DNA of 64,000 bases from positions 21,412-85,411 of the forward strand of contig JABGXW010000029.1 of NCBI GenBank assembly GCA_018675575.1, in the 5' to 3' direction. A program made the position numbers and the translations under genes. Of the stretch, positions 2,962 to 30,783 are shown piece after piece (positions within the stretch are counted from its first letter, which is position 1; every line of letters begins with the position of its first letter). Below the pieces are notes generated by a model. It was not told the DNA's origin, searched no databases, and was given only the letters and a program-made list of their open reading frames with translations. Origin of the DNA: Bacteriovoracaceae bacterium (GTDB lineage: Bacteria; Bdellovibrionota; Bacteriovoracia; Bacteriovoracales; Bacteriovoracaceae).

Positions 2962-4649
2962 ATCTTTTCAATTAAATAGTCTTCGATAGCTAAAAATTTC
3001 AAAGGAGATTTTTCAAAAAAATTATAAACATCATTGATATCTTCTACTATCGGTTCCCCCATTGTATTTAAGCTTGTATTCAAGATACAATAAATTCCAG
3101 ATAGGTTTCCATAGTATTTTATTAAGTTATAAAATTTTTCATTTGACTCAAAATGAACAGTCTGAACTCGAGAAGTTTTGTCTTTATGAGTAATTTCTTT
3201 TAACTGATTAGAAAACTTCTCATTTATTGGTAAGGTAAATGACATAAAAGGATTAAGAAAATATTTTTCTACATTAAAATAGAGGTGAACTTTTTCCGCA
3301 AGACAAGCCCCCCCATAGGGTCGAAATTCTTCTCTGAACTTCACCTTGCTATTTAAATAATTCTTTAATTTAGGAAACGAGAGACTGGCCAATAAACTTC
3401 TATGACCTAATGCTCTTTGTCCACATTCGCTTCGGCCCTGAAACCATGCAACAATATTATTTTTATTTAATAATATTGAAACTTCCTTTGATATATTCTC
3501 AAGTTTTGTAACTTTATATTTATTAAAAATTGTAGTTATTTCATGGCCAGTGGGTATTGATAAACTTGATCCATAGTAAGAATGTTGAGCTTTTTTTGCA
3601 ATGACCTTCCATGTAGACCTTTTATCTTTTAAATAGGTGAAGTAAGATAGTCCAAGTGATAATCCCTCATCACCAGGGAAAGGAGGAACATAGATTTGCT
3701 TAAACGTTTTTTGATTAATTAATTCAAAATTATTTGAACAATTTAAAGCACATCCTCCCGTGAAGATTATGTTTTCGTAGTCTGAAAAAGATAATTTAAG
3801 ATCATTAAACTTTCTCTTCATATATTTGGAATATTCATTTTGAGCAGTGGCCGCTAAATCCATATAAAGATTTAGATTCTCTGATTTATCCCAACTGACA
3901 TTATCTGACTTAGAAAATGATTTTGACCAATCTAAGTTCTCTAAGAAGTTAATCCTATCTTTTACAATCATTGGATTTCCAAATGCTGATAATCCCATTA
4001 GCTTTCCGGAGGCCATTTTAGACCCGAACACAAATCTTGCTATATTTTCATAAAAAATTCCTATGCTGTCAGAAAAATATTCATTCATACAAGACTTAGA
4101 GGCTTGAAATTCTTGCCATTCCTTATTTACACATTTAATTTCACCTAAGTTTTGAGTATATACAGACACACTCTCATGTTGATATTTTTTATTTTTAGGT
4201 GCTTCAATTTCCTCTATAACATCGGACTTTCTTGAACCTGACCCATCCACTACAAGAATCAACGACTTTTTAAATGGAGACATTGCCAATGCACAATAGG
4301 CATGTGCATCGTGGTGTCCGATAAACTTTAATTTATTATTATAAACAGAACTATATCTAGTTAACTTTTTAGTTCCTAGATAATTATAAAATGGAAAAGT
4401 CAAATCCATACTTTCTTCATGATCTTTAGGAGTAGTAACATCTCTATTTTCACAAATTATTTCTTCTCCTAGATCTCTAGTATTACAAAGGAGTTCTAAG
4501 GGAAGAAATGGCCAATTGCCAGCATATTTTTTTCTGGTCAGCCTCTCTGTTGATAATATTGTAATATCAGAAATAGAACCATTATAACTAGAGATAGCAC
4601 AAACATTAGAATTATAAATTGTCTTTGCAAGACCTGTAAATGTTTTCAT
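2958..4649 (-). CDS. Carbamoyltransferase, NodU/CmcH/TobZ family
   Basis: 563 aa with HHDAHAYCA, VVDGSG, GGCALN and QRALGHRSLL motifs typical of this family. Its stop overlaps the synthase stop (TTAG). Confidence 0.8.
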   Translation of the reverse strand: MKTFTGLAKTIYNSNVCAISSYNGSISDITILSTERLTRKKYAGNWPFLPLELLCNTRDLGEEIICENRDVTTPKDHEESMDLTFPFYNYLGTKKLTRYSSVYNNKLKFIGHHDAHAYCALAMSPFKKSLILVVDGSGSRKSDVIEEIEAPKNKKYQHESVSVYTQNLGEIKCVNKEWQEFQASKSCMNEYFSDSIGIFYENIARFVFGSKMASGKLMGLSAFGNPMIVKDRINFLENLDWSKSFSKSDNVSWDKSENLNLYMDLAATAQNEYSKYMKRKFNDLKLSFSDYENIIFTGGCALNCSNNFELINQKTFKQIYVPPFPGDEGLSLGLSYFTYLKDKRSTWKVIAKKAQHSYYGSSLSIPTGHEITTIFNKYKVTKLENISKEVSILLNKNNIVAWFQGRSECGQRALGHRSLLASLSFPKLKNYLNSKVKFREEFRPYGGACLAEKVHLYFNVEKYFLNPFMSFTLPINEKFSNQLKEITHKDKTSRVQTVHFESNEKFYNLIKYYGNLSGIYCILNTSLNTMGEPIVEDINDVYNFFEKSPLKFLAIEDYLIEKI

Positions 4650-5520: not shown

Positions 5521-6567
5521 TTAATTACTCTTTTTTGAAGTCATATATTTATTTATGAGTCTGATCCTTCTTGATAGCCCAATGACTTGTGAAAGAGGTA
5601 ATTTTTTTTTCATCAATTGTTTTATTAACAAATTATAGTTTTCTTCAATTGTCATTTTGGTCTTCTCATTTAAATTTTGGATTGAATACTTTTCAGGTGT
5701 TCTGAGGTAGTGCAGAGCGACATCCCTTAACTCAAACAAATCGTTGTCTATAAAATAGTGTACCATTTCTGGAAAGTTTTGAATATTTAATGAACTAATT
5801 GTCGTATACGATGTAATGTCCGCATTTGGTAGCTCATTTTTTAGCACTTTTATATTTCTCTCAATCTTTTCCCAGGCAATCCCGGGCCTAATATTCTGGG
5901 CATCTCCATTAATCCCGTCAATACTGATAGAAATTTGTAAATTATTAAACTTTTTTAGATTTTTGATATAGGAGGTTTTTATTGAACTTCCATTAGAATT
6001 AAACTCTAACCTAATATCTGTTCTTTTTAATCTAATTAATTCTTCTAAAAATTCTATTATTTCAGATTGTATAAATGGTTCTCCCCCTGCAATAGTAATT
6101 TTTTTTAATTGATTTAATAGCGGAAAAATATTTTTTTTAATATAGTTTGTATATGTGACAATAGTATTTTCACTACTCCACCTTGAGCTATACTCAGAAC
6201 TACATGTCAAACACTTCATATTACATAGGTTAGAAAATGAAAGGTCTACAGACTCTATTTCTTCTATAGGAGAAGAGGTTATATTGGTATTAATACTTTT
6301 AAATTCTTGTAAAAATACTGACTGTAAACTCTCACCCTTTTGAGTATTTTCTTTTAAAATACAAAATTCACATTGAGGGACAATTTCATCTTTTGACATT
6401 TTTTCTTTTATTAATTTAGATTTATATGAATTTAGAATATCAGCTAAGGGAATTTCATTAATTTCTCCCAAGCAATCACTGGCTTCATAACATGTATATA
6501 TTTTCCCATTCGGTGAAATGAGCACGCTCTTCCACGGCGCAGGGCAATAACTATTATTTATTTTCAT
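5521..6567 (-). CDS. Radical SAM enzyme with N-terminal Cys-rich twitch/SPASM-like module (paralogue 1)
   Basis: N-terminal CPAPW...GKIYTC...C...CEFC module, then the radical SAM triad NLCNMKCLTC (CxxxCxxC), then GGEPF. Confidence 0.7.
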   Translation of the reverse strand: MKINNSYCPAPWKSVLISPNGKIYTCYEASDCLGEINEIPLADILNSYKSKLIKEKMSKDEIVPQCEFCILKENTQKGESLQSVFLQEFKSINTNITSSPIEEIESVDLSFSNLCNMKCLTCSSEYSSRWSSENTIVTYTNYIKKNIFPLLNQLKKITIAGGEPFIQSEIIEFLEELIRLKRTDIRLEFNSNGSSIKTSYIKNLKKFNNLQISISIDGINGDAQNIRPGIAWEKIERNIKVLKNELPNADITSYTTISSLNIQNFPEMVHYFIDNDLFELRDVALHYLRTPEKYSIQNLNEKTKMTIEENYNLLIKQLMKKKLPLSQVIGLSRRIRLINKYMTSKKSN

Positions 6568-6676
6568 ATTTAATAATTTTAATCTATTTTTTAGGTTTAA
6601 TAAATATGATAAAGCCTATTAACTCACATTTCATCTAGAATATCTGTATAATAGCCTGAACGGATGGTGACAAAAG

Positions 6677-7765
6677 ATGAGTGTAAATGTCTATACTGAA
6701 TGGGATCCTCTTCAAGAAATAATTATTGGTAACGTAATAAATACCAAATTAAACTTTGTTATGGATTTTACCTTTAAGCTTTTTTACCATGAAAACATTA
6801 ATGATCAATTAATTAGAAATAATAAAAAACTGCAGCAAAGACTCATTATCCAGAGACAGGAAGATCTTGATAATTTAGCGAATATATTGAGTGATTTGGG
6901 TGTTAAAGTCAAAAGACCTACCATGTTGAATAGTCCATCTGACTTCATAACTCCTAACTTTAAAAGCAATTTACATCCTTCAGACAACCCTAGAGATTTA
7001 GTTCTTATCGTGGGAAATAAAATTATTGAGACCCCCGTCCTAGTTCGTCATAGATATTTTGAAACTGACTTATTGAAACCAATCTTTATGGATTACTTTA
7101 AAAATGGAGCGCACTGGATAAGTGCCCCCAAACCAACTTTAGTTGAGGAATCTTTTGACTATACCTATATTAAAAGTAATGACGCTAATAAACGCTGGGC
7201 GGATGTTAAAGAAGACGACGACAAATTAGAAATAATGTTTGATGCTGCACAATGCATGAAGTTTGGGAGGGATATTATAATGAATATCTCAACGAAAAAT
7301 CACGTATTAGGCGCTGAATGGTTAGAGAGAGAACTAGGCCCTGATTATAAATTACATAGAGTTAATTTAACAGATTATCACTTAGACGGAATGATGATGC
7401 CTCTGGCCCCTGGAAAACTTCTCATTAATCCTATTTCAATGGAAAAAAAGCTACACCTATTACCAGAAGAGCTTCAAAAATGGGATATCATCCATTGTGT
7501 TGATAAGGAAATCGCAACAACAGATGACGAAACTTTATTAATTGCTAGTGAAAATATCAGTGTCAATGTTTTACCGATAAACGAAAAGCAATGCATTGTA
7601 TTTAGTTCCACTGGTAGTGGATTATCTTCCATGAGAAAAAGTTTAGAAGAAAATGGTATCGAAGCAATACCTGTTAGACTTCGGCATTCTAGAGTCTTTG
7701 ACGGTGGCGTACATTGCTGCAGCCTTGATACTATTAGAAAAGGCAACCTTGAAACATATTTTTAA
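6677..7765 (+). CDS. Amidinotransferase (glycine amidinotransferase / StrB1 inosamine-phosphate amidinotransferase family)
   Basis: The C-terminal signature FDGGVHCCSLDTIRKGNLETYF matches the catalytic-Cys block GG-x-HC-x-T/S-x-D-x-R-R/K-G-x-L-x-x-Y of AGAT/StrB1/CyrA/SxtG-type enzymes. Size (362 aa) and the internal H-x-D (DYHLDG) block also fit. Confidence 0.8.
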   Translation: MSVNVYTEWDPLQEIIIGNVINTKLNFVMDFTFKLFYHENINDQLIRNNKKLQQRLIIQRQEDLDNLANILSDLGVKVKRPTMLNSPSDFITPNFKSNLHPSDNPRDLVLIVGNKIIETPVLVRHRYFETDLLKPIFMDYFKNGAHWISAPKPTLVEESFDYTYIKSNDANKRWADVKEDDDKLEIMFDAAQCMKFGRDIIMNISTKNHVLGAEWLERELGPDYKLHRVNLTDYHLDGMMMPLAPGKLLINPISMEKKLHLLPEELQKWDIIHCVDKEIATTDDETLLIASENISVNVLPINEKQCIVFSSTGSGLSSMRKSLEENGIEAIPVRLRHSRVFDGGVHCCSLDTIRKGNLETYF

Positions 7766-7783
7766 TACATCTGGATACCAAGT

Positions 7784-8929
7784 ATGAAAACTAACATCAA
7801 TTATATTGATGAGAAACTTAACGAAGCCAAAAATATTATAAATGAATTTGAAAAGTTTGGTTTTCAGAAAAATGGATTCTGCCTTGTACCATTCACAACA
7901 ATAATTCTGGAACCTAATGGAAATGTGGGGGTGTGTCGATTACATGGAACCGATAAAGCTATTGGAAGTTTAAATAATAACACTATTGAAGAGATATGGA
8001 ACGGTACTCATTTAAAGAAATGGCGAAGGGAATTTTTAGACGGGAAACCTGAGATTTGTAAAAATCAAATTAAAAATAAAAATTGTAACTTATGTATTGA
8101 AAATAATAAATTACTTAATTCTGTCGAGTTCAATGAAACTCAAACTACTCCTATTCAAAAATTAACAGCAAACTTCAATGGTTTTTGTAATTTAAAATGT
8201 ATAATGTGTGATGTGTGGACATTACCAAATGGTTACTATAATGAACAAAACTTCTGGGGTCCAGCACGAACAACAATTTTCCCTTTTTTAAAAGAAATAG
8301 ATATGCTTTCAGGGGAACCTTTTCTACAAGCTGACACTTATAAATTGATAAAAGAAGTAAGTAGGGTAAATACAAAATGTAAATGGTCAATTACAACCAA
8401 CGCCCATTGGAAACTTAATCAATCTATAAAAGGCCATCTTGACTTAATTGACATAAAGAATTTAATCATCTCTATAGATAGTGTTAATACAAATACCTAT
8501 TCAAATATTAGAAAAGGCGGAAAGCTAGATGTTGTATTGAAAAATGTAGAACACCTCTTGGATTATCAAGAGCAACGACTTAAAAACAATAAATCAAGTT
8601 TAAATATATATGTAAATTTTCTTGTTCAAAAAGAAAACTGGAATGAAATTTCTGACATGATTCAATACTGCATTTCGAATGAGATCATGCCATTCATTTC
8701 ATTTTGTGAAAGGCCAGAAGAATACAGCTTACTAGATTATGACGAAAAATTGAGAATTGAGATTCTCGAGTTCTATTTTTCAAATTTAACTAAAGTAGAA
8801 CTCTTCTTTAGTCTTAGAGTAATTAGACCACTAATTTTTTCTTTACCTGCAATTTTCAAAGCTGATTTTCTAACTAGACTAAATGACATGTCCTTCAATG
8901 ATACCTATCTCCCTGTAGTAAACTTCTAA
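7784..8929 (+). CDS. Radical SAM enzyme with N-terminal twitch/SPASM-like module (paralogue 2)
   Basis: FCLVPF...PNGNVGVCR...NTIEEIWN...C..C module, then GFCNLKCIMC (CxxxCxxC), GEPFLQ, TTNA-W. Collinear with paralogue 4. Confidence 0.7.
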   Translation: MKTNINYIDEKLNEAKNIINEFEKFGFQKNGFCLVPFTTIILEPNGNVGVCRLHGTDKAIGSLNNNTIEEIWNGTHLKKWRREFLDGKPEICKNQIKNKNCNLCIENNKLLNSVEFNETQTTPIQKLTANFNGFCNLKCIMCDVWTLPNGYYNEQNFWGPARTTIFPFLKEIDMLSGEPFLQADTYKLIKEVSRVNTKCKWSITTNAHWKLNQSIKGHLDLIDIKNLIISIDSVNTNTYSNIRKGGKLDVVLKNVEHLLDYQEQRLKNNKSSLNIYVNFLVQKENWNEISDMIQYCISNEIMPFISFCERPEEYSLLDYDEKLRIEILEFYFSNLTKVELFFSLRVIRPLIFSLPAIFKADFLTRLNDMSFNDTYLPVVNF

Positions 8930-8979
8930 GTGGGTAAAAATGAGCAAACAAAACAACACACTGTTTCGAATTTTTTATA

Positions 8980-10803
8980 ATGCTAATTTGGAGGTTTTTT
9001 TTGGATAAAAATAATAACATATTTTGCCTGGCCCCCTGGGTACATGCTCATGTAGATGTAGAAGGAAAGAGGGCCCTATGTGATTTCAGTGATCCTATAG
9101 AGGGTATCTGTAACAATTTATCTCTGAAAGAGTACTGGAATAGTCCTGAAATTAAAGAAAGAAGAGTCATGATGTTAAATGGTCAAGCACCAAAAGAATG
9201 TCATTCATGTTCTAAACGGAGAATTTCAACAGAACCTCATTGTGTAGAATTTAATAATCCATATAAATACCTTGTACCAACGATATTAAGAAATACCAAA
9301 GTTGACGGATCGACGTCCATGAAGCCATTCTATTATGATTATCGTTTCTCTAATATTTGCAACTTTAGTTGTAAGATGTGTTCAGCACCAAATTCTACAT
9401 TAATTGAAAATGAAACAAGAAAGTTTAATAATATAAATCCTAAACAACCTACGTTATATGAGAATAGAAAAGTTAATAATGAGAAAATATATTTACCTGA
9501 GTTTTTACAGAATATTGAAAAAGGACATGTTCAAAAAATATCCTGGGCCGGGGGAGAAACATTAATCACCCCAGAACACTGGGAGGTCATTAATAAGATA
9601 CTTAATCTTGATATGCAAAAAAAAATATGTCTATCATACAGCACTAATTTTAGTATTGAAAACTACAAAGGTACCAAAATCCTTGATATTCTCAAAGACT
9701 TTAAACATATATCTTATGAATTAAGTTTAGATGGAATTAAGGAGGTAGGTGAATTCATTAGATCCGGATTAAACTGGGAAACATTTTATACGAACTTTAA
9801 GAGTTTACCTATTCGTTCAAATCTCGACATCTCATTTGCTATTACGTTGACCATTCCTGGTATTCTCGATATCAAAAATCTCATCGATTTTCTACTAGAA
9901 GATCGACTTAAATATGTTCCTGTTTTTTGTATTGGAGATTATTCAACCGATGTCATGTCTCCCTTTATTCTTCCGAGACATCTTTATGATCAACTGCTCG
10001 ACAATTTCGAAAAGTTGGTAATAGAATACAATGACCCGTATCTTGATAATTTTATTGATTTGATCCATTCAATGAAAAATACGACAATCATTGAGGAATG
10101 TATCAATCTAGATATTAAAGATTTCATTAGTGCAAGAAAGTTTCATTCATTTAGAGAGCAATTAAATCCGCATCAAATAACATTAAATGAAATTTTCAAA
10201 ATTAAATCACCAGATATTTATAAGTGGTGGTTAAAAAGTGATGATGAACTAATAAAAAGCAGTCTTAGCCTAGTTGAATACAGACACATACTTCACAATA
10301 AAGAATGGGATGATAAACATTCTTATTCCAGCGAAACTTTTCAAGAGAAAGTAATTCTTACGACCACATTTAATTTCACGGGAAACTTAGAAACTTCCCC
10401 TAAGCTATTCTATGGTACAAACTTAATTCGTGAGATTACAGACCCTGTTGAGTATCTAAATAAATTATCAAGGCATATTAATAAAGAAGACAGAGTGTCT
10501 CTGATAGATGCTACTGGGAATATATTCAGTTCATGGCTAAATCGAAAAAACTTAAATTCTTATCAAAATAAAATTATCCTATGGCGTTTGATAAACCTTC
10601 CTGCCGATGAGTGGGATCGGAAATTCCCAAATTTAATTATTTTATCTACAAATTATCTTTCCCCGATCTCTTTCATTCTTCGAAATAAAAATGTAGACAA
10701 TAGATTAATATCTATCATTTGTAAGTTTGAATTTTTGGTTAGCTTCCTTAATCCTGTAATCTCGCTACACTTCAGAGTTCTTTTCAAAAGAAGGGACGAT
10801 TGA
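8980..10803 (+). CDS. Radical SAM enzyme with N-terminal twitch/SPASM-like module plus about 200-aa C-terminal extension of unknown function (paralogue 3)
   Basis: FCLAPW...GKRALC...ECHSC module, NICNFSCKMC triad, WAGGETL. The start is uncertain: there is no SD before ATG 8980, and an upstream ATG at 8940 is one T out of frame across a T8 tract. Confidence 0.65.
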   Translation: MLIWRFFLDKNNNIFCLAPWVHAHVDVEGKRALCDFSDPIEGICNNLSLKEYWNSPEIKERRVMMLNGQAPKECHSCSKRRISTEPHCVEFNNPYKYLVPTILRNTKVDGSTSMKPFYYDYRFSNICNFSCKMCSAPNSTLIENETRKFNNINPKQPTLYENRKVNNEKIYLPEFLQNIEKGHVQKISWAGGETLITPEHWEVINKILNLDMQKKICLSYSTNFSIENYKGTKILDILKDFKHISYELSLDGIKEVGEFIRSGLNWETFYTNFKSLPIRSNLDISFAITLTIPGILDIKNLIDFLLEDRLKYVPVFCIGDYSTDVMSPFILPRHLYDQLLDNFEKLVIEYNDPYLDNFIDLIHSMKNTTIIEECINLDIKDFISARKFHSFREQLNPHQITLNEIFKIKSPDIYKWWLKSDDELIKSSLSLVEYRHILHNKEWDDKHSYSSETFQEKVILTTTFNFTGNLETSPKLFYGTNLIREITDPVEYLNKLSRHINKEDRVSLIDATGNIFSSWLNRKNLNSYQNKIILWRLINLPADEWDRKFPNLIILSTNYLSPISFILRNKNVDNRLISIICKFEFLVSFLNPVISLHFRVLFKRRDD

Positions 10804-11871
10804 GCTGGCTGCAGTAATTAATCTTGAGAACTTACCCTCTGTAAGTAAGTCTAGCATCTTAAAATATTTTATTTGTAAATTATTTGGAAATGTTTCCACA
10901 AGTGCTCTTAATACCCGATGAGATATCAACAATTCACGTTGGGACATTTTTGAAAAATAATACTTAAGTATTTTTTTTCGTTGAGCCAGACCTAGTGTCG
11001 AGGGAGATAAATTCTCAGGGCTGTAAACATATTGAACAAATGGAAATAGATTATTTTCTTCACAGAAATTAAGCATTTCTATTATCTGGAAAGCATTTTC
11101 CCGTTGGATAGAAAAATTAATTTCCAAGTGAAAATCTTTTTCTTTTTGAAAAAGTTTAAGGTCGTCAATTGTTTTAAGTGCATTTCCCAATTTACCTGGA
11201 GCGCGAATAGATTCATAGGTCTTAGGATCTACTGTATCTAAACTAACTGATATACGGTTAATTTTAATTTTTCTCAAATGAGACTTTATTGATTCAGAAA
11301 GAGACCATTGTGCGTTTGTCGTAAAGCGCCAAGACAATGCGGGATTCGAGTCTGCTGCCAGGTTAATTATTTTATATAAATCTGGTTGCAGAAATGGTTC
11401 TCCCGCAAGAGGATCGATTTGTATTAAATTTGGAATGATATGCTTTTTTAAATGTTCCCAGAATCCATCTATTTTATCATATTCATGATTAGGCATGGCC
11501 CATATATTACAAAATGGGCATTGAAGGTTACAAAATCCGTTAATGTCTGGCGATAATCTTAATATTGGAGTTTTTACGACCTCCGAGGCGTCAATGTAGG
11601 GCAATAAATCAAGATTAGAGTGTAGCTTATTACAAGAGTTGTGATTGATATATTCTTTGCATGTTACAATATTTCCAGTTAAAAACTCCAGCCTCCAGTC
11701 ACGAAATTTTTTATTGTTCCAAATCTCTTCAATTGTATTTTCGTGAATATTCCCAAGAACATGACCAATACCCAATTCCCTACATGAGCCTACATGTCCA
11801 TTGGGATTTAGAATCAAACTTGCAAAAGGTACTGGACAAAATACCTTGGGTAGTGATTTACCATTTTTCAT
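10765..11871 (-). CDS. Radical SAM enzyme with N-terminal twitch/SPASM-like module (paralogue 4)
   Basis: FCPVPF...PNGHVGSCR...NTIEEIWN module, GFCNLQCPFC triad, GEPFLQ, TTNAQW. Its 3-prime end overlaps paralogue 3 by 39 nt (convergent). Confidence 0.7.
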   Translation of the reverse strand: MKNGKSLPKVFCPVPFASLILNPNGHVGSCRELGIGHVLGNIHENTIEEIWNNKKFRDWRLEFLTGNIVTCKEYINHNSCNKLHSNLDLLPYIDASEVVKTPILRLSPDINGFCNLQCPFCNIWAMPNHEYDKIDGFWEHLKKHIIPNLIQIDPLAGEPFLQPDLYKIINLAADSNPALSWRFTTNAQWSLSESIKSHLRKIKINRISVSLDTVDPKTYESIRAPGKLGNALKTIDDLKLFQKEKDFHLEINFSIQRENAFQIIEMLNFCEENNLFPFVQYVYSPENLSPSTLGLAQRKKILKYYFSKMSQRELLISHRVLRALVETFPNNLQIKYFKMLDLLTEGKFSRLITAASSIVPSFEKNSEV

Positions 11872-11956
11872 ATTAGATCCATAATCATTTGGTCATTGTT
11901 ATTACTCAGCCTGTGATATATTATATCATTAGTCACATGAAATAGAGGTAATAATT

Positions 11957-12247
11957 ATGACTTCATATGCCAATTCAGATATGGTTATTAAAACTGTAGA
12001 CGATATTGTTACTAGAAAAAATGATAATGGTAGTATCATACTTATGAAAATGAACGACTCAGATAATTTTTTCAAGATTGACGGCATAGCATCAATGATC
12101 TGGCGCGAATCTGTAGACAATGGTCGACAACTTGGTGAAATATTTAAGCTAGTAATTGACGGATATGAAGTTGAGGCCAGCACATTGGAAAAAGATATAG
12201 ACAAATTATTACAAGATCTCAGATCCCACAAACTCATTGTTGAATAA
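11957..12247 (+). CDS. PqqD-family protein (RiPP-recognition-element-like peptide chaperone)
   Basis: 96 aa. The pattern DNGSIILMKM..DNFFKIDGIASMIWRE..NGRQLGEIFKLVIDGYEV....LEKDIDKLLQDLRSHKLIVE follows the PqqD family profile (LN-x-x-a-x-x-iW, y-v-x-x-x-x-x-e-x-Dv-x-x-fl-x-x-L-x-x-x-x-li). Good SD (AGAGGT) 8 nt upstream. Confidence 0.65.
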   Translation: MTSYANSDMVIKTVDDIVTRKNDNGSIILMKMNDSDNFFKIDGIASMIWRESVDNGRQLGEIFKLVIDGYEVEASTLEKDIDKLLQDLRSHKLIVE

Positions 12248-14112: not shown

Positions 14113-14145
14113 AGTTAAATTATATGAGATTAGGTCAATTAAGTC

Positions 14146-22995: not shown

Positions 22996-23057
22996 GTTGA
23001 ATTCCTTAGATCATGTCTTTTTAATATGTTAATCTAATTCAAATATTGGATTTATAC

Positions 23058-25608: not shown

Positions 25609-27552
25609 ATGAAACTCCCTAGTTTAGTTGAGATTGAAATTAATAGTCGTTGTAATCTCACTTGTTCATATTGCCCAAACTCTGTAGCTGATAGAATTGA
25701 AAATGGAGATATGGACCCCAAACTATTCTCCCTTATAATTAGACAACTCAAAAAATATAATTATCAAGGACAGATGGCCTTTGAGTTTTACAATGAGCCG
25801 CTTCTGTGCGTCAATTTAGAGAATTTTATTCTCGAGGCAAAGGAGTCTCTCCCATTAATAACAATAATACTCTATTCAAATGGCACAAAATTAACAAAAG
25901 AAAAATTTAATAAACTTATAGTATGTGGGGTAGATAAGTTTATTATTACAAAACATGAGGGCGTGAAGAATATTCCTTTTGAGCAATTTTTTACCAGTAT
26001 GAACGAAGAGGACAGGTCTCATGTCTCTTTTCAAAATCATACCGAAGTTTCAAAGTATAACAGAGCTGGAATATTGCCCCACCTTGGTAGTGCAGAGGAT
26101 TTACGAGAAAAACCATGTAATATTCCAAATCATATTTTAACAATTTCCGTTTTAGGAAATGTTCTCTCTTGCTTTGAAGACTTTTATCAAAAGTATGTCT
26201 TTCAAAATGTAAAAGATGCTAATGTAATAGAGACTTGGAATAGCAATCCTTATAATCAATTTAGAAATGATCTAATAGACGGTAAACGAGAAATTTACAG
26301 TACTTGTAATAAATGTAATCGTGAAGATCGAAAGTTTGAAATGAATAAAAACAAACATATGATTGACGAATTAGAAATAGAGGCCATTAAGAAGGTGTTA
26401 GATAATGGTAAACTGTTTCGCTATAAACGAGAACCAGGGGAATGTGAAAATTTTGAGAAAGAATTTTCTAATTTTCTCGGGACAAAACATACCTCGTTAG
26501 TCACCAGTGGAACAAACGCATTAGTTGCTGCACTGATTACACTTAACATCACAGAAGGTGATGAAGTTATTATTCCTTCATATACATTTGTAGCTACCGC
26601 AAGTGCTGTTCTTACGGTCGGTGCCATCCCTGTGGTAGTAAATATTGGTAATGACTTATTAATATCTTTAACAGAAATAGAAAGTGCTATCACAGAAAGA
26701 ACAAAGCTTATCATACCTGTTCACATGGATGGTCTTCAATGTGAAATTGATAAGATTTCTGTTCTTGCAAAGGAGAAAAAACTTTTTTTAGTCGAGGATG
26801 TAGCGCAAGCATTAGGTGCAAGTTATAAAGGAAAAATGTTGGGATCTTTTGGTGATCTTGGATGTTTTTCTTTTAACAGAGATAAAACAATTACTTGTGG
26901 CGAAGGTGGAGCTGTCACCACTAATAATCAGTTATACAGCGAAAGACTGCTTTTTATTACAGATAATGCTTACCAGTATAATACATTTCATAAAAACAAA
27001 TTTACAAATATTACACCTTTTTTAGGTCTCTCCATGAGAATGTCTGAGATTTCTGGCGCCATGTTAAGGATTCAGTTAAAAAAGACAAGTAATATTATCG
27101 AACAAAATAAATTACGAAAAGACATTCTTACTAACTCTTTAAAAAATTCAAAACATTATAAAGAAAAGTTTTCAATAATCAATTCCGCAGACCCCGATGG
27201 ACAATGTTATTCCACTATTCATTTGAAGTTCAACGAACCTGATACAGCAGCACTAGTATCAAAGAAGTTTTTGTCACAAAAAATATTAATTATCCCTATA
27301 ACGTTAAGATTAGCCCATTTCGTTTGGAAGTGGAATAATATATTAAAACCGGGTTCATCCTACTCCAAAAGCAGAGACCCCTATGCTGCAACAGATAAAA
27401 AATATAACTATTCTAAAATCAATTACCTTCCCTCAATCGATATTATTATGTCCACATTAAGAGGTGAAATTGATATTACAAAGACAGAAGAAGAAACAAA
27501 GCTTATGGGTATTCAAATGGTAAAAATCATTGGAGCAGTATGTGGAAATTAA
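25609..27552 (+). CDS. Fusion protein: N-terminal radical SAM/SPASM-twitch domain plus C-terminal DegT/DnrJ/EryC1/StrS-family PLP aminotransferase
   Basis: N-terminal part: SRCNLTCSYC (CxxxCxxC), then the auxiliary-cluster region CNIPNHILTISVLGNVLSC...CNKC. C-terminal part from about aa 250: TSGTNALVAAL, IIPSYTFVATA, VEDVAQALG and the PLP-Lys block FSFNRDKTITCGEGG. Confidence 0.8.
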   Translation: MKLPSLVEIEINSRCNLTCSYCPNSVADRIENGDMDPKLFSLIIRQLKKYNYQGQMAFEFYNEPLLCVNLENFILEAKESLPLITIILYSNGTKLTKEKFNKLIVCGVDKFIITKHEGVKNIPFEQFFTSMNEEDRSHVSFQNHTEVSKYNRAGILPHLGSAEDLREKPCNIPNHILTISVLGNVLSCFEDFYQKYVFQNVKDANVIETWNSNPYNQFRNDLIDGKREIYSTCNKCNREDRKFEMNKNKHMIDELEIEAIKKVLDNGKLFRYKREPGECENFEKEFSNFLGTKHTSLVTSGTNALVAALITLNITEGDEVIIPSYTFVATASAVLTVGAIPVVVNIGNDLLISLTEIESAITERTKLIIPVHMDGLQCEIDKISVLAKEKKLFLVEDVAQALGASYKGKMLGSFGDLGCFSFNRDKTITCGEGGAVTTNNQLYSERLLFITDNAYQYNTFHKNKFTNITPFLGLSMRMSEISGAMLRIQLKKTSNIIEQNKLRKDILTNSLKNSKHYKEKFSIINSADPDGQCYSTIHLKFNEPDTAALVSKKFLSQKILIIPITLRLAHFVWKWNNILKPGSSYSKSRDPYAATDKKYNYSKINYLPSIDIIMSTLRGEIDITKTEEETKLMGIQMVKIIGAVCGN

Positions 27553-28561
27553 AGAATGGATTTTTAAGAACAAAAGATTCCATATGGAGACAATCGATAT
27601 ACCTGATAAACTCAAGACAGGCGATGTTCTCATCAAACCTTCTCTAGTAGGTATTTGTGGTTCAGATCTTTTTGCGATGGAACTTGTGCAAGATACTAAA
27701 ACATTGCGCTTAGGTCATGAATGGGTTGGAGAAGTTCTCGATCCCAACGGAACTACATTTAAAAAAGGTCAAAAGGTTACAAGCCCTGCCATCTTAGGTT
27801 GTGGTAAATGTGATTTTTGTAATAGAGGAGATTCACATCTCTGTACAAATTGTCTCGTCCTTGGTGGAGAAGAACTTGGACTACTTAGAAATATACTTAT
27901 TATTCATGAACGTCATTTAATTGAAACTCCTGATTTAAATCACTCATCCGCAGTACTCATTGAAGTTGCGGCAGTAAGCTTTGAGGCCCTTCGACAAATA
28001 AAATATCTTGGATATGATAAAAGTCATCAATTACTTATTTTTGGTGCTGGTCCGGTAGGACTTTTCTGTGCACTACAAGCGAAACAAGAAGGTTATAAAT
28101 ATAAGATAATTGAAGTGGATAAATTTAGAGTTCAGTTTGCACGTTCGCTCGGTTTAGATGTTGAGCAAACTCAATCTGCCGTTATGAATAGAGATTATTC
28201 AAAGAAATTTTCATTTATTGTAGATTGCTCAGGGGACGGAAATAATCGTTCAGGCTTTTGGAAATATTTTAATTTCTTTACCTCTGTTGGAGTTAAGGTA
28301 TTAATTGTCGGAAAATATTTAAATAACCCAACAATCAATTCGAACCTCTTCGCAAAGAAAGATTCGACGATAAAATGGATGAGGGGAATGAGCATAGATA
28401 TTCTCAAAGATACATATGATTTTTGGAAAGAAGATATTGAAAAGTTGTCGGATAAAATAATTACTCATCGATTTAGATTTAACGAAGTAGCTGAAGCCTT
28501 TGATGTTGCAATGAAGAGAAAAGATTCAATCAAAGTTGTTATTGATTTTTCAATAGACTAA
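27530..28561 (+). CDS. Zn-dependent medium-chain alcohol/polyol dehydrogenase
   Basis: GICGSDL, GHEWVGEV, structural-Zn cysteines CGKCDFCNRGDSHLC, Rossmann IFGAGPVGL. Overlaps the upstream fusion gene by 23 nt. Confidence 0.8.
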   Translation: MEQYVEIKEWIFKNKRFHMETIDIPDKLKTGDVLIKPSLVGICGSDLFAMELVQDTKTLRLGHEWVGEVLDPNGTTFKKGQKVTSPAILGCGKCDFCNRGDSHLCTNCLVLGGEELGLLRNILIIHERHLIETPDLNHSSAVLIEVAAVSFEALRQIKYLGYDKSHQLLIFGAGPVGLFCALQAKQEGYKYKIIEVDKFRVQFARSLGLDVEQTQSAVMNRDYSKKFSFIVDCSGDGNNRSGFWKYFNFFTSVGVKVLIVGKYLNNPTINSNLFAKKDSTIKWMRGMSIDILKDTYDFWKEDIEKLSDKIITHRFRFNEVAEAFDVAMKRKDSIKVVIDFSID

Positions 28562-30340
28562 TTAAGAATTCATCAACTGTCTTTCAACAGTGTTTTCTTG
28601 TTCTTCGAAGAGTAGATAATTAACATCATCTACCTGACTCTTAGTTAACTCTTCTGAAAAAAACTTTCCAACTCGAAGATGTTCAATTTTAACTTCAATA
28701 CTAGCAGGAAAGTTCAATTCACTTGTTAGTGTTTCACTTATTTTTCCAAGAAATGAATTAAACCATTTTCGTGTAAGTTTAAATATACTTGCTTCAGGAA
28801 TAGTTATGTGTGATTGAATCAATTTATTACATGTTAGCGATGGTAAATCAAATCTTTTCTCGATAAGCTCACTGATAACAAGTTTTACAAGAGATATATG
28901 ATTTGAAAATGACTCTTGATCTCTATATCCATGAAGTATTTTTTCTTCAATCAAAAACCTGTTTTGCCTCAAGCTAAAGTTTGAGATGTTCTTATTTTCT
29001 AATTTATTTTCCTTTTTAAAGTATTTGCAAAGCTCAATTACGCCCGATTGGATGGCCGATGAAAGAACCATCGTTGCATCATAATTTTTTAAACTTTGTT
29101 CGATCCAACCAAAATCAGAATATTTTTTTGCATAAAAGAACCATACCAAAAGATTTGTATAAGCATAGAAATCCCACAACGATTTTATATTAAATAATTC
29201 AAAACTCCCAAATCCTTGATATTGATCCTTATAAATTAATGTTAAAAAATCAAATTCATTTTTCATAAATTTGTTTATTACTTTAACTTTATGAGGTAAG
29301 TTTTCGTCACCTGATACAAGATGTGCTAACAGATGACACTCCCTTGCAATTATATCAGTACCCGGAGAATAAAAAGGGTCAATAAAACCATAAGCTTCAC
29401 CAAGATATGCAATTTTATCTGTAAAACAAAAATTTTCTCTGCAATAATCAAGCTGGGTTCCAAATTGGAAATCTAGCAATTCTGCCTCTATAATTAGTTT
29501 TTTTACAAAACTGTTCTCATTTAATGCTGCTAGAAATTCTTTTTCTGTTTCAATTGGTTTTGCCATATATTTTTTATCATAGACAATTCCAAAACTCACG
29601 ATGTCATCACCTATCGGGATGGCCCACACCCAAGACCCCTCTTTCATAAAGTGATTTGTTGAAAGATACCTGCTCGTAAAACCTACTTTTTCCTTCCATT
29701 TTTCAGAACCAATATTATCAATATCAATTACATTTTTAAAACGTCCCCACGCCGCAGCAGTATTTAAATCACCACTTGATATAATTGGATTTCTTTTTTC
29801 TAATAGGTCATCAATATTATTATTTCTTCCAGCTGTATTTACAAACCACTCACAACTAATGGAAATTTTCTTTTCTAAATGTTGAATTAATATTTCATGA
29901 GATTTATTTTTTTCTACTTTAATATTAGTAATATCTGCTTCTAATAATATATCAATACCTATCTTTGCATTCATTTTTAGTAAATCTGTATCAAACTTAG
30001 CTCTATCAATTTGGTAAGTTGGTATCACGGGAATCATATTTGTTCCTACTTCTGAACAAGATTCCACCTTGAAATCAATGCGACTATCTTCGAAGAAATA
30101 TCTTAATCCATTCTTAGGCAGATGATTTTGGTAACAATATGTCGACAGGCCTAAATCTCTAATCATAAATATTCCGGCAACACCAACTGTTGATTCACCA
30201 GGAGACCACTTAAACTCTTTTTCCTTTTCTATTATAAGAATCTTTTTATCTGGATATTGAAGCTTTAGAAAACGTGCTGCTAATGAACCAGAAAGTCTTC
30301 CGCCGGCAAATACCATGTCATAATGTTGCTTTAATTCCAC
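28562..30340 (-). CDS. FAD-dependent halogenase-like oxidoreductase (flavin-dependent halogenase signature)
   Basis: N-terminal dinucleotide fold (VFAGGRLSGSLAA...ILIIEKE). GSWVWAIPIG contains the WxWxIP motif. FIDPFYSPG fits FxxPxxSxG. Its stop abuts the ADH stop. Confidence 0.65.
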   Translation of the reverse strand: MELKQHYDMVFAGGRLSGSLAARFLKLQYPDKKILIIEKEKEFKWSPGESTVGVAGIFMIRDLGLSTYCYQNHLPKNGLRYFFEDSRIDFKVESCSEVGTNMIPVIPTYQIDRAKFDTDLLKMNAKIGIDILLEADITNIKVEKNKSHEILIQHLEKKISISCEWFVNTAGRNNNIDDLLEKRNPIISSGDLNTAAAWGRFKNVIDIDNIGSEKWKEKVGFTSRYLSTNHFMKEGSWVWAIPIGDDIVSFGIVYDKKYMAKPIETEKEFLAALNENSFVKKLIIEAELLDFQFGTQLDYCRENFCFTDKIAYLGEAYGFIDPFYSPGTDIIARECHLLAHLVSGDENLPHKVKVINKFMKNEFDFLTLIYKDQYQGFGSFELFNIKSLWDFYAYTNLLVWFFYAKKYSDFGWIEQSLKNYDATMVLSSAIQSGVIELCKYFKKENKLENKNISNFSLRQNRFLIEEKILHGYRDQESFSNHISLVKLVISELIEKRFDLPSLTCNKLIQSHITIPEASIFKLTRKWFNSFLGKISETLTSELNFPASIEVKIEHLRVGKFFSEELTKSQVDDVNYLLFEEQENTVERQLMNS

Positions 30341-30706: not shown

Positions 30707-30783
30707 TGGTCGGAGCGACTGGATTCGAACCAGCGACCCCCTGCTCCCAAAGCAGGTGCGCTACCAAACTGCGCTACGCTCCG
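30707..30783 (-). tRNA. tRNA-Pro (anticodon UGG), CCA encoded
   Basis: Reverse complement: CGGAGCG TA GCGC AGTTTGGTA GCGC A CCTGC TTTGGGA GCAGG GGGTC GCTGG TTCGAAT CCAGT CGCTCCG A CCA. This gives a 77-nt cloverleaf with a 7-bp acceptor stem, TTCGAAT T-loop and anticodon loop TT-TGG-GA. Confidence 0.9.

What the first reader, a model, noticed from the sequence alone, without database searches (positions are those of the whole stretch)
25609..28561. Radical SAM (SPASM/twitch) domain fused to a DegT-family aminotransferase, followed by a Zn-ADH: a possible oxidise-then-aminate module
One 647-aa ORF joins a complete rSAM core and a DegT/StrS-type PLP aminotransferase. The rSAM core has CNLTCSYC plus a C-terminal auxiliary-cluster region CNIP...SC...CNKC. 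The aminotransferase has the Lys block FSFNRDKTITCGEGG.

In butirosin biosynthesis, the twitch-type rSAM dehydrogenase BtrN oxidises 2-deoxy-scyllo-inosamine and a DegT-family aminotransferase (BtrS) aminates the resulting ketone. Other aminoglycoside pathways use an NAD/Zn-ADH for the same oxidation.

A covalent rSAM-dehydrogenase/aminotransferase fusion would channel a hydroxyl to keto to amine conversion on a sugar or cyclitol. A Zn-ADH gene follows with a 23-nt overlap, and the amidinotransferase at 6.7 kb could then guanidinylate the amine. I am not aware of a characterised fusion of this type.
Basis: partly seen in the sequence, partly recalled or inferred. Interest (0 to 1): 0.7.

Follow-up and report, generated by a model that had tools for sequence, protein, structure and literature searches.

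The report
BtrN-like radical SAM–aminotransferase fusion enzyme
A predatory marine bacterium encodes one protein that joins a radical-SAM alcohol oxidiser (a close relative of the antibiotic enzyme BtrN) to the aminotransferase that would use its product, so it probably turns a sugar hydroxyl into an amine in one enzyme; the fusion is real, conserved and uncharacterised, but its substrate is unknown.

Summary
ORF 25609-27552 (647 aa) has two halves:
- **Residues 1-240:** a full-length homologue of the twitch radical-SAM dehydrogenase BtrN (PDB 4M7T, E 4e-57, 38.6% identity, TM 0.92). All seven cluster cysteines and the family-invariant Arg152 are kept.
- **Residues 251-647:** a DegT-family aminotransferase (Pfam 252 bits, PLP lysine K426). 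Its closest solved relative is KdnA, the Kdo8N transaminase.

The fusion is not an artefact. About 38 clusters, including the finished Halobacteriovorax marinus SJ genome, carry it in frame with a short variable linker, and their rSAM halves form one clade.

In three relatives the BtrN-like, Zn-ADH and DegT genes are separate but adjacent. The Zn-ADH lies within 10 kb in 8 of 10 fusion loci. This supports an oxidise-then-aminate module.

The context is not aminoglycoside-like. No cyclitol synthase was found. The module sits in glycan or RiPP-like islands (GT1s, carbamoyltransferase, ABC-2 exporter, PqqD, further rSAMs), or at the end of the kdsB-pyrG-kdsA-kdsC-gpsA operon.

The amidinotransferase at 6.7 kb is real but accompanies the fusion in only one other locus. 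The substrate is unresolved; a Kdo-like sugar acid is the best lead. This is a new variant of a known kind.

The parts
25609..27552 (+). Fusion gene, 647 aa: BtrN-like rSAM dehydrogenase domain, linker, then DegT aminotransferase domain
   Evidence: ORF. Pfam domains. AlphaFold2 model with mean pLDDT 95.3 and pTM 0.81.
25609..26328 (+). Residues 1-240: twitch radical-SAM domain, full-length homologue of BtrN
   Evidence: phmmer against PDB 4M7S/4M7T: E 4e-57, query residues 2-240 aligned to BtrN 3-239. 38.6% identity. Foldseek 4M7T: TM 0.92, rmsd 1.3 A.
25651..25674 (+). CX3CX2C motif (C15, C19, C22), site of the SAM-binding [4Fe-4S] cluster
   Evidence: Aligned with BtrN C16/C20/C23. At least 97% conserved in 39 fusion and 80 stand-alone family members.
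26062..26064 (+). Arg152 codon, equivalent to BtrN Arg152 in the NRxG motif
   Evidence: Invariant in all fusion and stand-alone family members and in BtrN. Its role as substrate contact or base is from my recollection of the BtrN structure paper, which I could not verify here.
26116..26316 (+). Twitch sub-domain with four auxiliary-cluster cysteines (C170, C188, C233, C236)
   Evidence: Pfam SPASM, residues 170-237. One-to-one alignment with BtrN C169/C187/C232/C235. C170 and C188 are 100% conserved across the family; C233 and C236 are invariant in the 39 fusions.
26329..26358 (+). Inter-domain linker, residues about 241-250
   Evidence: Variable in length (about 8-20 aa) and in sequence across the 39 fusions, between the conserved CxxCNR and (N/D/E)KH(L/F)(I/L) motifs. 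It is the only block with lower pLDDT, about 75.
26359..27549 (+). Residues 251-647: DegT/DnrJ/EryC1/StrS-family PLP aminotransferase domain, KdnA-like
   Evidence: Pfam PF01041, 252.7 bits. Best PDB match is KdnA 5K8B, E 1.1e-52, 36.7% identity. Foldseek 5K8B: TM 0.89. The stand-alone DegT of H. marinus BE01 starts exactly at this boundary, MDKHFID.
26884..26886 (+). Lys426 codon, the predicted PLP Schiff-base lysine
   Evidence: FSFNRDKTITCGEGG aligns with YSFDSVKTITCGEGG of KdnA. Position computed.
27542..28561 (+). Zn-dependent medium-chain dehydrogenase (polyol/threonine-DH type), overlapping the fusion gene and probably translationally coupled to it. The longest ORF starts at TTG 27530.
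   Evidence: ADH_N, 65.6 bits. PDB threonine, xylitol and sorbitol dehydrogenases at about 1e-17. It belongs to a lineage-specific clade of about 60 clusters. Found within 10 kb of the fusion in 8 of 10 fusion loci and between the BtrN-like and DegT genes in 3 of 3 split loci.
6677..7765 (+). Amidinotransferase. Context gene; its link to the fusion is uncertain.
   Evidence: PDB HsvA, AGAT, StrB1 and SxtG at 1e-49 to 1e-58. A 79%-identical orthologue lies 8.5 kb from the fusion in L003. Absent from the other module loci.
2958..4649 (-). NodU/CmcH-family carbamoyltransferase. Context gene and a recurrent partner of the module elsewhere.
   Evidence: Pfam Carbam_trans_N/C. Orthologues lie beside the module in L012, L013, L015, L017, L018 and the P0025 locus.
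5521..12247 (.). Four N-terminal-twitch rSAM genes (5521-6567 -, 7784-8929 +, 8980-10803 +, 10765-11871 -) and a PqqD-like ORF (11957-12247 +). Context: the island that is contiguous with fusion plus ADH in L003.
   Evidence: NF033640, 239.7 and 266.1 bits (cut-off 170) for two of the four; it is the best hit, below cut-off, for the other two. PqqD-like ORF. Synteny with L003.

Best explanation
The gene encodes a bifunctional 'hydroxyl-to-amine' enzyme.

**N-terminal domain.** It works like BtrN.
1. Its CX3CX2C [4Fe-4S] cluster cleaves SAM to a 5'-deoxyadenosyl radical.
2. That radical abstracts the carbinol hydrogen of a carbohydrate-type substrate.
3. The resulting radical is deprotonated, probably by the Arg152 equivalent, and gives its electron to the fully Cys-ligated auxiliary [4Fe-4S] cluster.
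4. This leaves a ketone or aldehyde.

**C-terminal domain.** The DegT domain, in its PMP form and charged by Glu or Gln, transaminates that carbonyl to an amine.

**Role of the fusion.** It keeps a labile carbonyl (possibly an amino-carbonyl) intermediate next to its consumer.

**Zn-ADH.** The co-transcribed Zn-ADH provides a second, NAD(P)-dependent oxidation of the same scaffold. This would either create the first carbonyl for a first round of amination, as in the dual-use BtrS/BtrR logic, or act at another position.

**Destination.** The product feeds a strain-variable surface glycoconjugate of Bacteriovoracia, not an aminoglycoside. The most likely substrate class is a free, non-nucleotide sugar acid or polyol such as Kdo, giving a Kdo8N-like amino-ulosonic acid.

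**Shown here:** the domain identities, the cofactor ligands, the conservation of the fusion, the split gene versions and the neighbourhoods.
**Inferred:** the chemistry, the hand-off between domains, the role of the ADH and the substrate.
For: **rSAM half**
- BtrN is the only strong PDB sequence hit for the N-half (E 4e-57, full length). The model superposes on 4M7T with TM 0.92 and rmsd 1.3 A.
- All three plus four cluster cysteines are conserved, together with 41 family-invariant positions including Arg152, Glu190/Asp191, His116 and Tyr89/Asn91.
- There is no additional conserved cysteine: C67 and C106 vary. This argues against an epimerase that needs a Cys hydrogen donor, and a four-Cys auxiliary cluster fits an electron-acceptor role, as reviewed in PMC9012708.

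**Aminotransferase half**
- It has the PLP lysine, so it is not a His-type dehydratase. Its nearest structures are KdnA, Fic25 and BtrR, which to my knowledge all act on substrates that are not nucleotide-linked.

**Gene-fusion (Rosetta-stone) and neighbourhood evidence**
- BtrN-like, Zn-ADH and DegT are three separate adjacent genes in L011, L012 and L013.
- Fusion rSAM halves form one clade.
- The ADH is within 10 kb in 8 of 10 fusion loci. At least 13 fusion clusters share a contig length with a member of the dedicated ADH clade.
- In H. marinus the ADH, the rSAM domain and a GDSL gene are present (strain SJ) or absent (strain BE01) together, between flanks 96-98% identical.

**Glycan context**
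- GT1s, a carbamoyltransferase and an ABC-2 exporter share the operon or island in L015, L017 and L018.
- BtrN-like domains are fused to GT1 in other proteins.

**Kdo lead**
- In L009 the fusion and ADH end the kdsB-pyrG-kdsA-kdsC-gpsA operon, and the fusion start overlaps the gpsA stop.
- A DegT-only orthologue occupies the same slot in L004 and L005.
- KdsB/PseF-like cytidylyltransferase genes lie near the module in L001, L016 and L007.
Against: - No biochemical data exist for any member of this family.
- The substrate is not identified.
- The window's own copy lies next to neither Kdo genes nor GT1 or ABC-2 genes.
- KdnA identity is only 36.7% and its margin over other DegT enzymes is modest (182 vs 164 bits).
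- Having both an ADH and an rSAM dehydrogenase is not explained by a simple Kdo-to-Kdo8N conversion.
- Two fusion loci have no ADH within 10 kb.
- DegT-only orthologues nested within the fusion clade show that the aminotransferase can function, or at least persist, without the rSAM domain.
- PqqD and many SPASM/twitch rSAMs in the islands would also fit peptide chemistry.
- The trees are neighbour-joining, without support values.
Confidence: 0.6

Rival explanations
1. Aminocyclitol route. The Zn-ADH oxidises an inositol or cyclitol, DegT aminates it, the BtrN domain oxidises the resulting inosamine (as BtrN does with 2-deoxy-scyllo-inosamine), and DegT aminates again. The amidinotransferase and carbamoyltransferase then decorate the diamine, giving a streptidine- or 2-DOS-like metabolite.
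For: - BtrN's known substrate is an aminocyclitol, and the family-conserved residues are shared with BtrN.
- BtrR is among the top structural matches of the C-half.
- The ADH's best NCBIfam hits include scyllo-inosose 3-dehydrogenase IolM, at 90-106 bits and far below its cut-off.
- An amidinotransferase with StrB1 similarity of 7e-52 lies in the same island in the window and in L003.
- The scheme uses all three conserved enzymes economically.
Against: - No DHQS-like DOI synthase or inositol-phosphate synthase was found among the window genes I scanned (all of 1-32.9 kb and ten more ORFs; the remaining ORFs of the housekeeping half were not scanned) or in the annotated related loci. The only DHQS hit is a housekeeping AroB-AroA fusion in L015.
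- The amidinotransferase is absent from 11 of 13 module loci.
- KdnA, not BtrR, is the nearest aminotransferase.
- The neighbours are GT1s, an ABC-2 exporter or the Kdo operon.
Confidence: 0.15
2. Same pathway but no direct hand-off. The rSAM domain acts on a different molecule or at a different step from the DegT domain: for example a sugar already attached to a glycan or peptide, a residue of a PqqD-recognised precursor peptide, or as an epimerase. On this view the fusion reflects only co-regulation or complex formation.
For: - The islands are rich in PqqD, N-twitch rSAMs, a papain-plus-lectin protease and small S74-domain proteins.
- BtrN-like domains are also fused to glycosyltransferases, which suggests action at or after glycosyl transfer.
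- DegT-only orthologues exist.
Against: - BtrN-like, ADH and DegT recur as neighbours in both fused and split forms across divergent clades.
- There is no conserved extra Cys for an epimerase-type hydrogen return.
- An aminotransferase needs a carbonyl, and the module contains two dehydrogenases.
Confidence: 0.2
3. The fusion is an assembly, frameshift or gene-calling artefact, or a decaying pseudogene.
For: Relatives with separate genes exist (L011-L013), and DegT-only versions exist.
Against: - 39 in-frame fusion sequences at 40-68% identity come from independent sources, including the finished H. marinus SJ chromosome.
- A 100%-identical independent contig spans the junction (P0001).
- All catalytic motifs are intact.
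- The model is confident throughout.
- The split versions have the ADH gene between the two halves and belong to other clades.
Confidence: 0.01

Closest known systems
BtrN plus BtrS/BtrR, butirosin 2-deoxystreptamine pathway of Niallia (Bacillus) circulans
   Same: - The N-half is a full-length BtrN homologue: same abridged rSAM core, same twitch domain with a four-Cys auxiliary cluster, and the same invariant residues.
- The partner is a DegT-family aminotransferase.
- The logic is the same: an rSAM oxidises C-OH, then PLP aminates the carbonyl.
   Different: - The two enzymes are covalently fused here, and separate genes in butirosin.
- Identity to BtrN is only 38.6%.
- The aminotransferase is nearer to KdnA than to BtrR (182 vs 138 bits).
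- No DOI synthase or other aminoglycoside genes were found.
- The host is a predatory Bdellovibrionota lineage, and the context is a surface-glycan or RiPP-like island.
KdnB plus KdnA, Kdo8N biosynthesis in Shewanella
   Same: - It is an oxidise-then-aminate pair acting on free Kdo before CMP activation (PMC4402001).
- KdnA is the best sequence and structure match of the C-half.
- In L009 and L004 the module or its DegT sits at the end of the Kdo operon.
   Different: - KdnB is an Fe-ADH-family oxidase (PMC5125639). Here the oxidants are an rSAM domain and a Zn-ADH, and no Fe-ADH gene appears in the loci examined.
- Identity to KdnA is 36.7%.
- Kdo8N is reported only from Shewanella.
- The window's copy is not next to kds genes.
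NAD-dependent dehydrogenase plus DegT pairs in sugar amination: NeoA-type DOIA dehydrogenase/NeoB, GnnA/GnnB, WbpB/WbpE, NtdC/NtdA (named from my own knowledge of these pathways)
   Same: The two-step hydroxyl to keto to amine conversion by a dehydrogenase and a DegT aminotransferase encoded side by side. The Zn-ADH partner here resembles the NAD-dependent option.
   Different: - Those pairs use a single nicotinamide-dependent dehydrogenase and are not fused.
- This module carries both an rSAM and a Zn-ADH oxidant.
- None of these sequences was compared here.
SpeY and HygY, twitch rSAM dehydrogenase and epimerase of spectinomycin and hygromycin B pathways (named from my own knowledge)
   Same: Twitch-domain rSAM enzymes acting on secondary alcohols of sugar or aminocyclitol scaffolds.
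   Different: Not fused to aminotransferases. Not compared by sequence here. The fusion lacks a conserved extra Cys of the kind epimerases use.

Membership tests
Radical SAM superfamily | CX3CX2C motif binding the SAM-cleaving [4Fe-4S] cluster; Pfam PF04055 above the gathering score | tested here: met
   C15/C19/C22. PF04055 33.7 bits against a 29.5 cut-off. Aligned to BtrN C16/C20/C23 (the Cys assignment in BtrN is from PMC9012708).
BtrN-type twitch rSAM dehydrogenases | Full-length homology to BtrN, including the abridged core and a single C-terminal auxiliary-cluster (twitch) domain | tested here: met
   phmmer E 4e-57, query residues 2-240 against BtrN 3-239. Foldseek 4M7T: TM 0.92, rmsd 1.3 A. 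In the NJ tree BtrN nests inside the Bacteriovoracia family.
BtrN-type twitch rSAM dehydrogenases | Auxiliary [4Fe-4S] cluster fully ligated by four cysteines | tested here: met
   C170, C188, C233 and C236 align with BtrN C169/C187/C232/C235 and are invariant in the fusions. Four-Cys ligation in BtrN is from PMC9012708.
BtrN-type twitch rSAM dehydrogenases | Two-electron oxidation of a substrate alcohol (enzyme activity) | not testable with these tools
   Inferred only from homology, from the absence of a conserved extra Cys, and from fusion to an enzyme that consumes carbonyls.
2-Deoxystreptamine/butirosin-type aminoglycoside pathway | Presence of a 2-deoxy-scyllo-inosose synthase (DHQS-like) or another cyclitol-forming enzyme, plus aminoglycoside tailoring genes, in the cluster | tested here: not met
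   No such family among the window genes I scanned: every gene in 1-32.9 kb and ten further ORFs of 318-521 aa in the housekeeping half. The other ORFs beyond 32.9 kb were not scanned. None in L001, L003, L006-L009, L011, L012, L014-L018, except a housekeeping AroB-AroA fusion at the edge of L015.
DegT/DnrJ/EryC1/StrS aminotransferases | PF01041 above the gathering score, fold-type I architecture, and an active-site lysine (not the histidine of the dehydratases) | tested here: met
   252.7 bits against a 19.8 cut-off. K426 lies in the S-F-x-x-x-K-x-x-x-x-G-E-G-G block aligned to KdnA. Foldseek TM 0.75-0.89 to many family members.
KdnA (Kdo8N transaminase) orthologues | Closest characterised relative is KdnA, by a clear margin | tested here: inconclusive
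   KdnA is the best hit by sequence (182 bits; next 164) and by fold, but identity is only 36.7%. No NCBIfam model passes its cut-off. JGI's 'KdnA' names for homologues are automatic.
KdnA (Kdo8N transaminase) orthologues | Genomic association with Kdo biosynthesis genes and a KdnB (Fe-ADH) oxidase | tested here: inconclusive
   A kds operon lies directly upstream in L009, and of the DegT-only form in L004/L005. It is not present in the window or in most island-type loci. No Fe-ADH partner was seen in any locus.
Zn-dependent medium-chain dehydrogenases (neighbour gene) | ADH_N domain; catalytic Cys/His/Glu and structural four-Cys zinc sites; GxGxxG dinucleotide fold | tested here: met
   PF08240 65.6 bits against a 23.5 cut-off. 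The sequence shows GICGSD, LGHEWVGEV, the CGKCDFC...C block and FGAGPVG. PDB threonine and polyol dehydrogenases at about 1e-17.
Streptidine-type amidination (StrB1-like) coupled to the module | Amidinotransferase consistently co-located with the amine-forming enzymes | tested here: not met
   The amidinotransferase is real, but it is found near the module only in the window (19 kb away) and in L003. It is absent from the other 11 module loci.

The most novel reading that the evidence does not exclude
Bacteriovoracia make Kdo8N-like (or diamino) ulosonic acids for their outer membrane or capsule by an oxygen-independent radical route. A BtrN-type rSAM domain replaces the Fe-ADH oxidase KdnB and is welded to a KdnA-like transaminase, forming a single-polypeptide 'alcohol-to-amine' converter. 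This would be the first rSAM dehydrogenase acting in primary envelope-sugar metabolism, and the founding member of a large, unexplored family of BtrN-like sugar-modifying enzymes, some of them fused to glycosyltransferases.
Probability: 0.25. Interest if true: 0.75.

Novelty: new variant of a known kind. Interest (0 to 1): 0.6.

Why it matters
- **A rare enzyme type turns out to be a family.** To my knowledge BtrN has been the main characterised rSAM dehydrogenase that acts on a carbohydrate-like small molecule. The exhaustive search found 59 representatives at E <= 1e-30 and 1,574 at E <= 1e-10; the named close relatives are nearly all from the predatory Bacteriovoracia, and some are fused to aminotransferases or glycosyltransferases.
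- **The fusion predicts function.** It is a natural gene-fusion (Rosetta-stone) clue that the rSAM product is a carbonyl destined for transamination.
- **It is a compact target for experiments.** It would let one study radical oxidation coupled to PLP amination, and it could serve as a one-protein, cofactor-economical biocatalyst for converting C-OH to C-NH2.
- **It may mark prey-relevant surface variation.** The module is a strain-variable cassette (H. marinus SJ versus BE01). It may therefore mark surface-glycan differences relevant to how these predators recognise prey or evade phage.
- **If the Kdo link holds,** it would extend Kdo8N-type envelope chemistry beyond Shewanella.

Tried and rejected
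- **Promoter and terminator scan of 22.4-30.9 kb.** Promoter-like sites were fewer than in shuffles, so the scan says nothing about operon limits.
- **Genome-contig scan.** It returned only 5 loci, so contexts had to come from the look-up of encoding contigs, which was used to its cap.
- **Papers not held.** The BtrN structure paper (PMC3791736), the Drennan-lab twitch review (PMC4326806) and the Kdo8N paper (PMC3610993) were unavailable. I therefore could not map BtrN's substrate-contact residues; I used family-wide conservation as a substitute.
- **Model coordinates.** They are not exposed, so the distance and orientation between the two active sites could not be measured. pTM 0.81 only suggests a defined arrangement.
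- **Literature searches.** Searches for BtrN + aminotransferase + fusion, radical SAM + DegT + fused, and Halobacteriovorax + radical SAM found nothing relevant. A first Kdo8N/KdnA search was swamped by kinetoplast 'kDNA' papers.
- **S74 protein, GT1s and ABC-2 permease in the window.** tblastn with the L017/L015/L012 proteins found none.
- **Pfam and NCBIfam on the amidinotransferase.** Both gave nothing; only the PDB sequence search identified it.
- **Rejected ideas.** The antisense 97-aa ORF at 26421-26714 is not a gene; it lies inside the conserved DegT coding region. An anSME-like role in peptide formylglycine formation is unlikely, because the domain has a single-cluster twitch and matches BtrN, not the two-cluster SPASM enzymes.

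Full report
**1. The observation**

Pfam finds three domains, each above its curated cut-off:
- Radical_SAM, residues 10-112
- SPASM, residues 170-237
- DegT_DnrJ_EryC1, residues 252-518 (252.7 bits)

No NCBIfam model reaches its cut-off, so no curated family describes this protein. The quoted motifs are present: C15/C19/C22, C170/C188/C233/C236 and the lysine block with K426. The window has about 30-38% G+C. The best-named relatives are Halobacteriovorax and Bacteriovoracaceae, and the neighbouring ADH is 100% identical to an NCBI protein from a 'Bacteriovoracaceae bacterium' MAG.

**2. The rSAM half**

A sequence search of all PDB chains with residues 1-254 returns BtrN as the only significant hit. 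The E-value is 4e-57, covering query residues 2-240 against BtrN 3-239, at 38.6% identity.

The three SAM-cluster cysteines and the four auxiliary-cluster cysteines align one-to-one with those of BtrN. [quoted passage not shown]

In an alignment of 39 fusion N-halves, 80 stand-alone relatives and BtrN, 41 positions are at least 90% conserved in both groups. Nearly all are identical in BtrN, including Arg152, His116(117), Tyr89(90)/Asn91(92) and Glu190/Asp191 (BtrN 189/190). Only two positions distinguish fusions from stand-alone proteins. The two extra cysteines, C67 and C106, are not conserved, which argues against an epimerase needing a thiol hydrogen donor.

An AlphaFold2 model is very confident (mean pLDDT 95.3, pTM 0.81), and only the linker drops to about 75. 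Its N-domain superposes on BtrN 4M7T with TM 0.92 and rmsd 1.3 A.

**3. The aminotransferase half**

The best PDB sequence hit is KdnA of Shewanella, the 8-amino-3,8-dideoxy-manno-octulosonate transaminase (5K8B, E 1.1e-52, 36.7% identity). It is followed by two uncharacterised 'sugar transaminases' and WecE, with BtrR at 5e-39. Foldseek gives the same order: KdnA TM 0.89, then 7B0M, Fic25, 7B0D and BtrR. To my knowledge KdnA, Fic25 and BtrR all act on substrates that are not nucleotide-linked. That is a weak hint that the same holds here.

**4. The fusion is real and arose once**

About 38 clusters at 40-68% identity carry the same architecture at about 630-655 aa. They include the finished H. 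marinus SJ chromosome, where the gene is annotated 'putative pilin glycosylation protein'. A 100%-identical partial protein from a separate contig spans the junction (P0001).

In all 39 sequences the last cluster motif, CxxCNR, is followed by a variable 8-20-residue linker and then the conserved (N/D/E)KH(L/F)(I/L) start of the DegT domain. In a neighbour-joining tree all fusion rSAM halves form one clade, and BtrN itself nests among the stand-alone Bacteriovoracia proteins.

The DegT tree also has a fusion clade, but several stand-alone DegTs are nested within it, which implies secondary loss of the rSAM domain. These trees carry no support values.

**5. Split versions and the Zn-ADH**

A blastp synteny table against the window's proteins shows that three relatives encode the activities as separate genes:

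| Locus | Gene order |
|---|---|
| L011 | BtrN-like, Zn-ADH, DegT (overlapping genes) |
| L012, L013 | BtrN-like, Zn-ADH, PqqD, S74 protein, DegT, carbamoyltransferase, N-twitch rSAM |

The Zn-ADH is within 10 kb of the fusion in 8 of 10 distinct fusion loci. It is adjacent in the window, L001, L003, L009, L010 and L015, and in the same operon or island in L017 and L018. It is absent in L014 and the P0025 locus.

The ADH belongs to a lineage-specific clade of about 60 clusters, beyond which similarity falls abruptly to generic polyol and threonine dehydrogenases. At least 13 fusion clusters share a 'longest contig' length with a member of that clade, which I take to mean the same contig.

A natural experiment points the same way. 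H. marinus SJ and BE01 have flanks 96-98% identical. SJ carries ADH, fusion and a GDSL gene, whereas BE01 carries only a divergent DegT that starts exactly at the domain boundary.

**6. Context**

There are two recurring settings.

(a) *Island type.* These islands hold a carbamoyltransferase, one to three GT1s, an ABC-2 exporter, PqqD, N-terminal-twitch and other rSAMs, a papain-plus-lectin protease and a small S74-domain protein (L015, L017, L018, the P0025 locus). The window is a variant of this type. It has the carbamoyltransferase, an ABC ATPase, four N-twitch rSAMs, PqqD, a GT2, the papain-lectin protein and an amidinotransferase, but no S74, GT1 or ABC-2 permease genes. In L003, the closest relative (68% identical fusion), the same genes are contiguous with fusion plus ADH.

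(b) *Kdo operon type.* In L009 (64% identical fusion) the fusion and ADH close the kdsB-pyrG-kdsA-kdsC-gpsA operon. All five genes score above NCBIfam cut-offs, and the fusion's start overlaps the gpsA stop. In L004 and L005 a DegT-only orthologue sits in the same slot. KdsB/PseF-like cytidylyltransferase genes are near the module in L001/L016 and next to a DegT in L007.

Other points on context:
- Stand-alone BtrN-like genes lie beside large GT1 genes and ABC-2 exporters (L006, L008).
- The exhaustive representative search found GT1-BtrN, BtrN-GT1 and DUF6625-BtrN fusions.
- No cyclitol-forming enzyme was found. I scanned every window gene in 1-32.9 kb and ten further ORFs in the housekeeping half; the remaining ORFs there were not scanned.

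**7. Interpretation**

The best-supported explanation is a bifunctional enzyme that oxidises a carbinol by BtrN-type radical chemistry and transaminates the resulting carbonyl, working with a dedicated Zn-ADH. The pathway would supply a strain-variable surface glycoconjugate.

- **Shown:** domain identity, cofactor ligands, conservation, split and fused gene forms, neighbourhoods.
- **Inferred:** the reaction, the hand-off, the ADH's role (first-round oxidation or a second site) and the substrate.

A Kdo-like free sugar acid is the leading candidate substrate. The supports are the KdnA similarity, the Kdo operon linkage and the nearby cytidylyltransferases. Kdo8N is made from free Kdo before incorporation (PMC4402001), and its known oxidase is an Fe-ADH (PMC5125639). 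This remains a lead, not a result.

The aminocyclitol, streptidine-like reading remains possible for the window and L003, where the amidinotransferase co-occurs, but it lacks a cyclitol synthase and does not generalise to the other loci.

**8. Novelty**

Pairs of a dehydrogenase and a DegT aminotransferase are well known, and BtrN/BtrS is the radical example. What is new:
- the covalent fusion;
- the presence of both a radical and a nicotinamide-dependent oxidant;
- the host lineage and its glycan or Kdo context;
- the size and fusion diversity of the BtrN-like family.

No paper or curated model covering this was found.

Noticed in passing
window 1-30783: The left 30 kb has lower G+C (about 0.30-0.32) than the housekeeping right half (0.34-0.38). 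It ends at tRNA-Pro (30707-30783). This looks like a variable genomic island bounded by a tRNA gene.
   Followed up: partly
window 6677-7765 (+): This 362-aa amidinotransferase is strongly similar to HsvA, AGAT, StrB1 and SxtG (E 1e-49 to 1e-58). It gets no hit at all in Pfam or NCBIfam, which is an annotation blind spot. Its 79%-identical orthologue sits in the same rSAM island in L003.
   Followed up: partly
window 5521-14160: A cluster of four N-terminal-twitch rSAM genes (NF033640), a PqqD-like 96-aa ORF (11957-12247), a P-loop 335-aa protein and a GT2. The same set is syntenic in L003. Its function is unknown and it has both RiPP-like and glycan-like features.
   Followed up: partly
window 1-4649: A polyketide synthase fragment (KR and DH domains, cut by the window edge) lies next to a NodU/CmcH-type carbamoyltransferase and an ABC ATPase.
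   Followed up: no
L017 4040-4498; L018 1863-2309; L015 17159-17611 (-); L012 9387-9881 (-): Small proteins of about 150 aa combine a conserved N-terminal segment of about 45 residues (...EYNFGGIQEFSLEEIE.EVL.DSVYLDVFAGSD) with a Peptidase_S74 self-cleaving chaperone domain. They always lie beside PqqD, rSAMs, GT1s and a papain-lectin protease. They may be a self-processing precursor or scaffold. No counterpart exists in the window.
   Followed up: partly
L013 11077-13941: A 955-aa stop-free reading frame appears to fuse a carbamoyltransferase to an N-twitch rSAM; these are separate adjacent genes in L012. I did not check it for a frameshift or an internal start.
   Followed up: no
P0216, P0224, P0232, P0259, P0288, P0244: BtrN-like domains are also fused to GT1 glycosyltransferases, in both orders, and to DUF6625. 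This suggests a wider family of sugar-modifying radical enzymes.
   Followed up: partly
L001 8976-13355 vs L016 8001-9179: H. marinus strains SJ and BE01 differ by a cassette swap between near-identical flanks. SJ has Zn-ADH, fusion and GDSL-lipase-like genes. BE01 has a DegT-only gene that is only about 70% identical at the DNA level.
   Followed up: yes
window 23046-25584 (+): An FG-GAP/ASPIC (CRTAC1-like) putative lipoprotein and a stand-alone RnfD/NqrB-like 272-aa membrane protein lie directly upstream of the fusion, with overlapping or tightly spaced genes. An FG-GAP/ASPIC gene also flanks the island in L018. Whether the RnfD-like protein feeds electrons to the rSAM enzymes is unknown.
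   Followed up: no
window 28562-30340 (-): A flavin-dependent halogenase/monooxygenase-like gene (Trp_halogenase family, weak CmlS similarity) is convergent with the Zn-ADH. It is not conserved in the related loci.
   Followed up: no
window 27530-27552: The Zn-ADH probably starts at GTG 27542 (GGAG 6 nt upstream; the identical NCBI protein is 339 aa). This gives an 11-nt overlap with the fusion gene, compared with the 23 nt of the longest ORF.
   Followed up: yes
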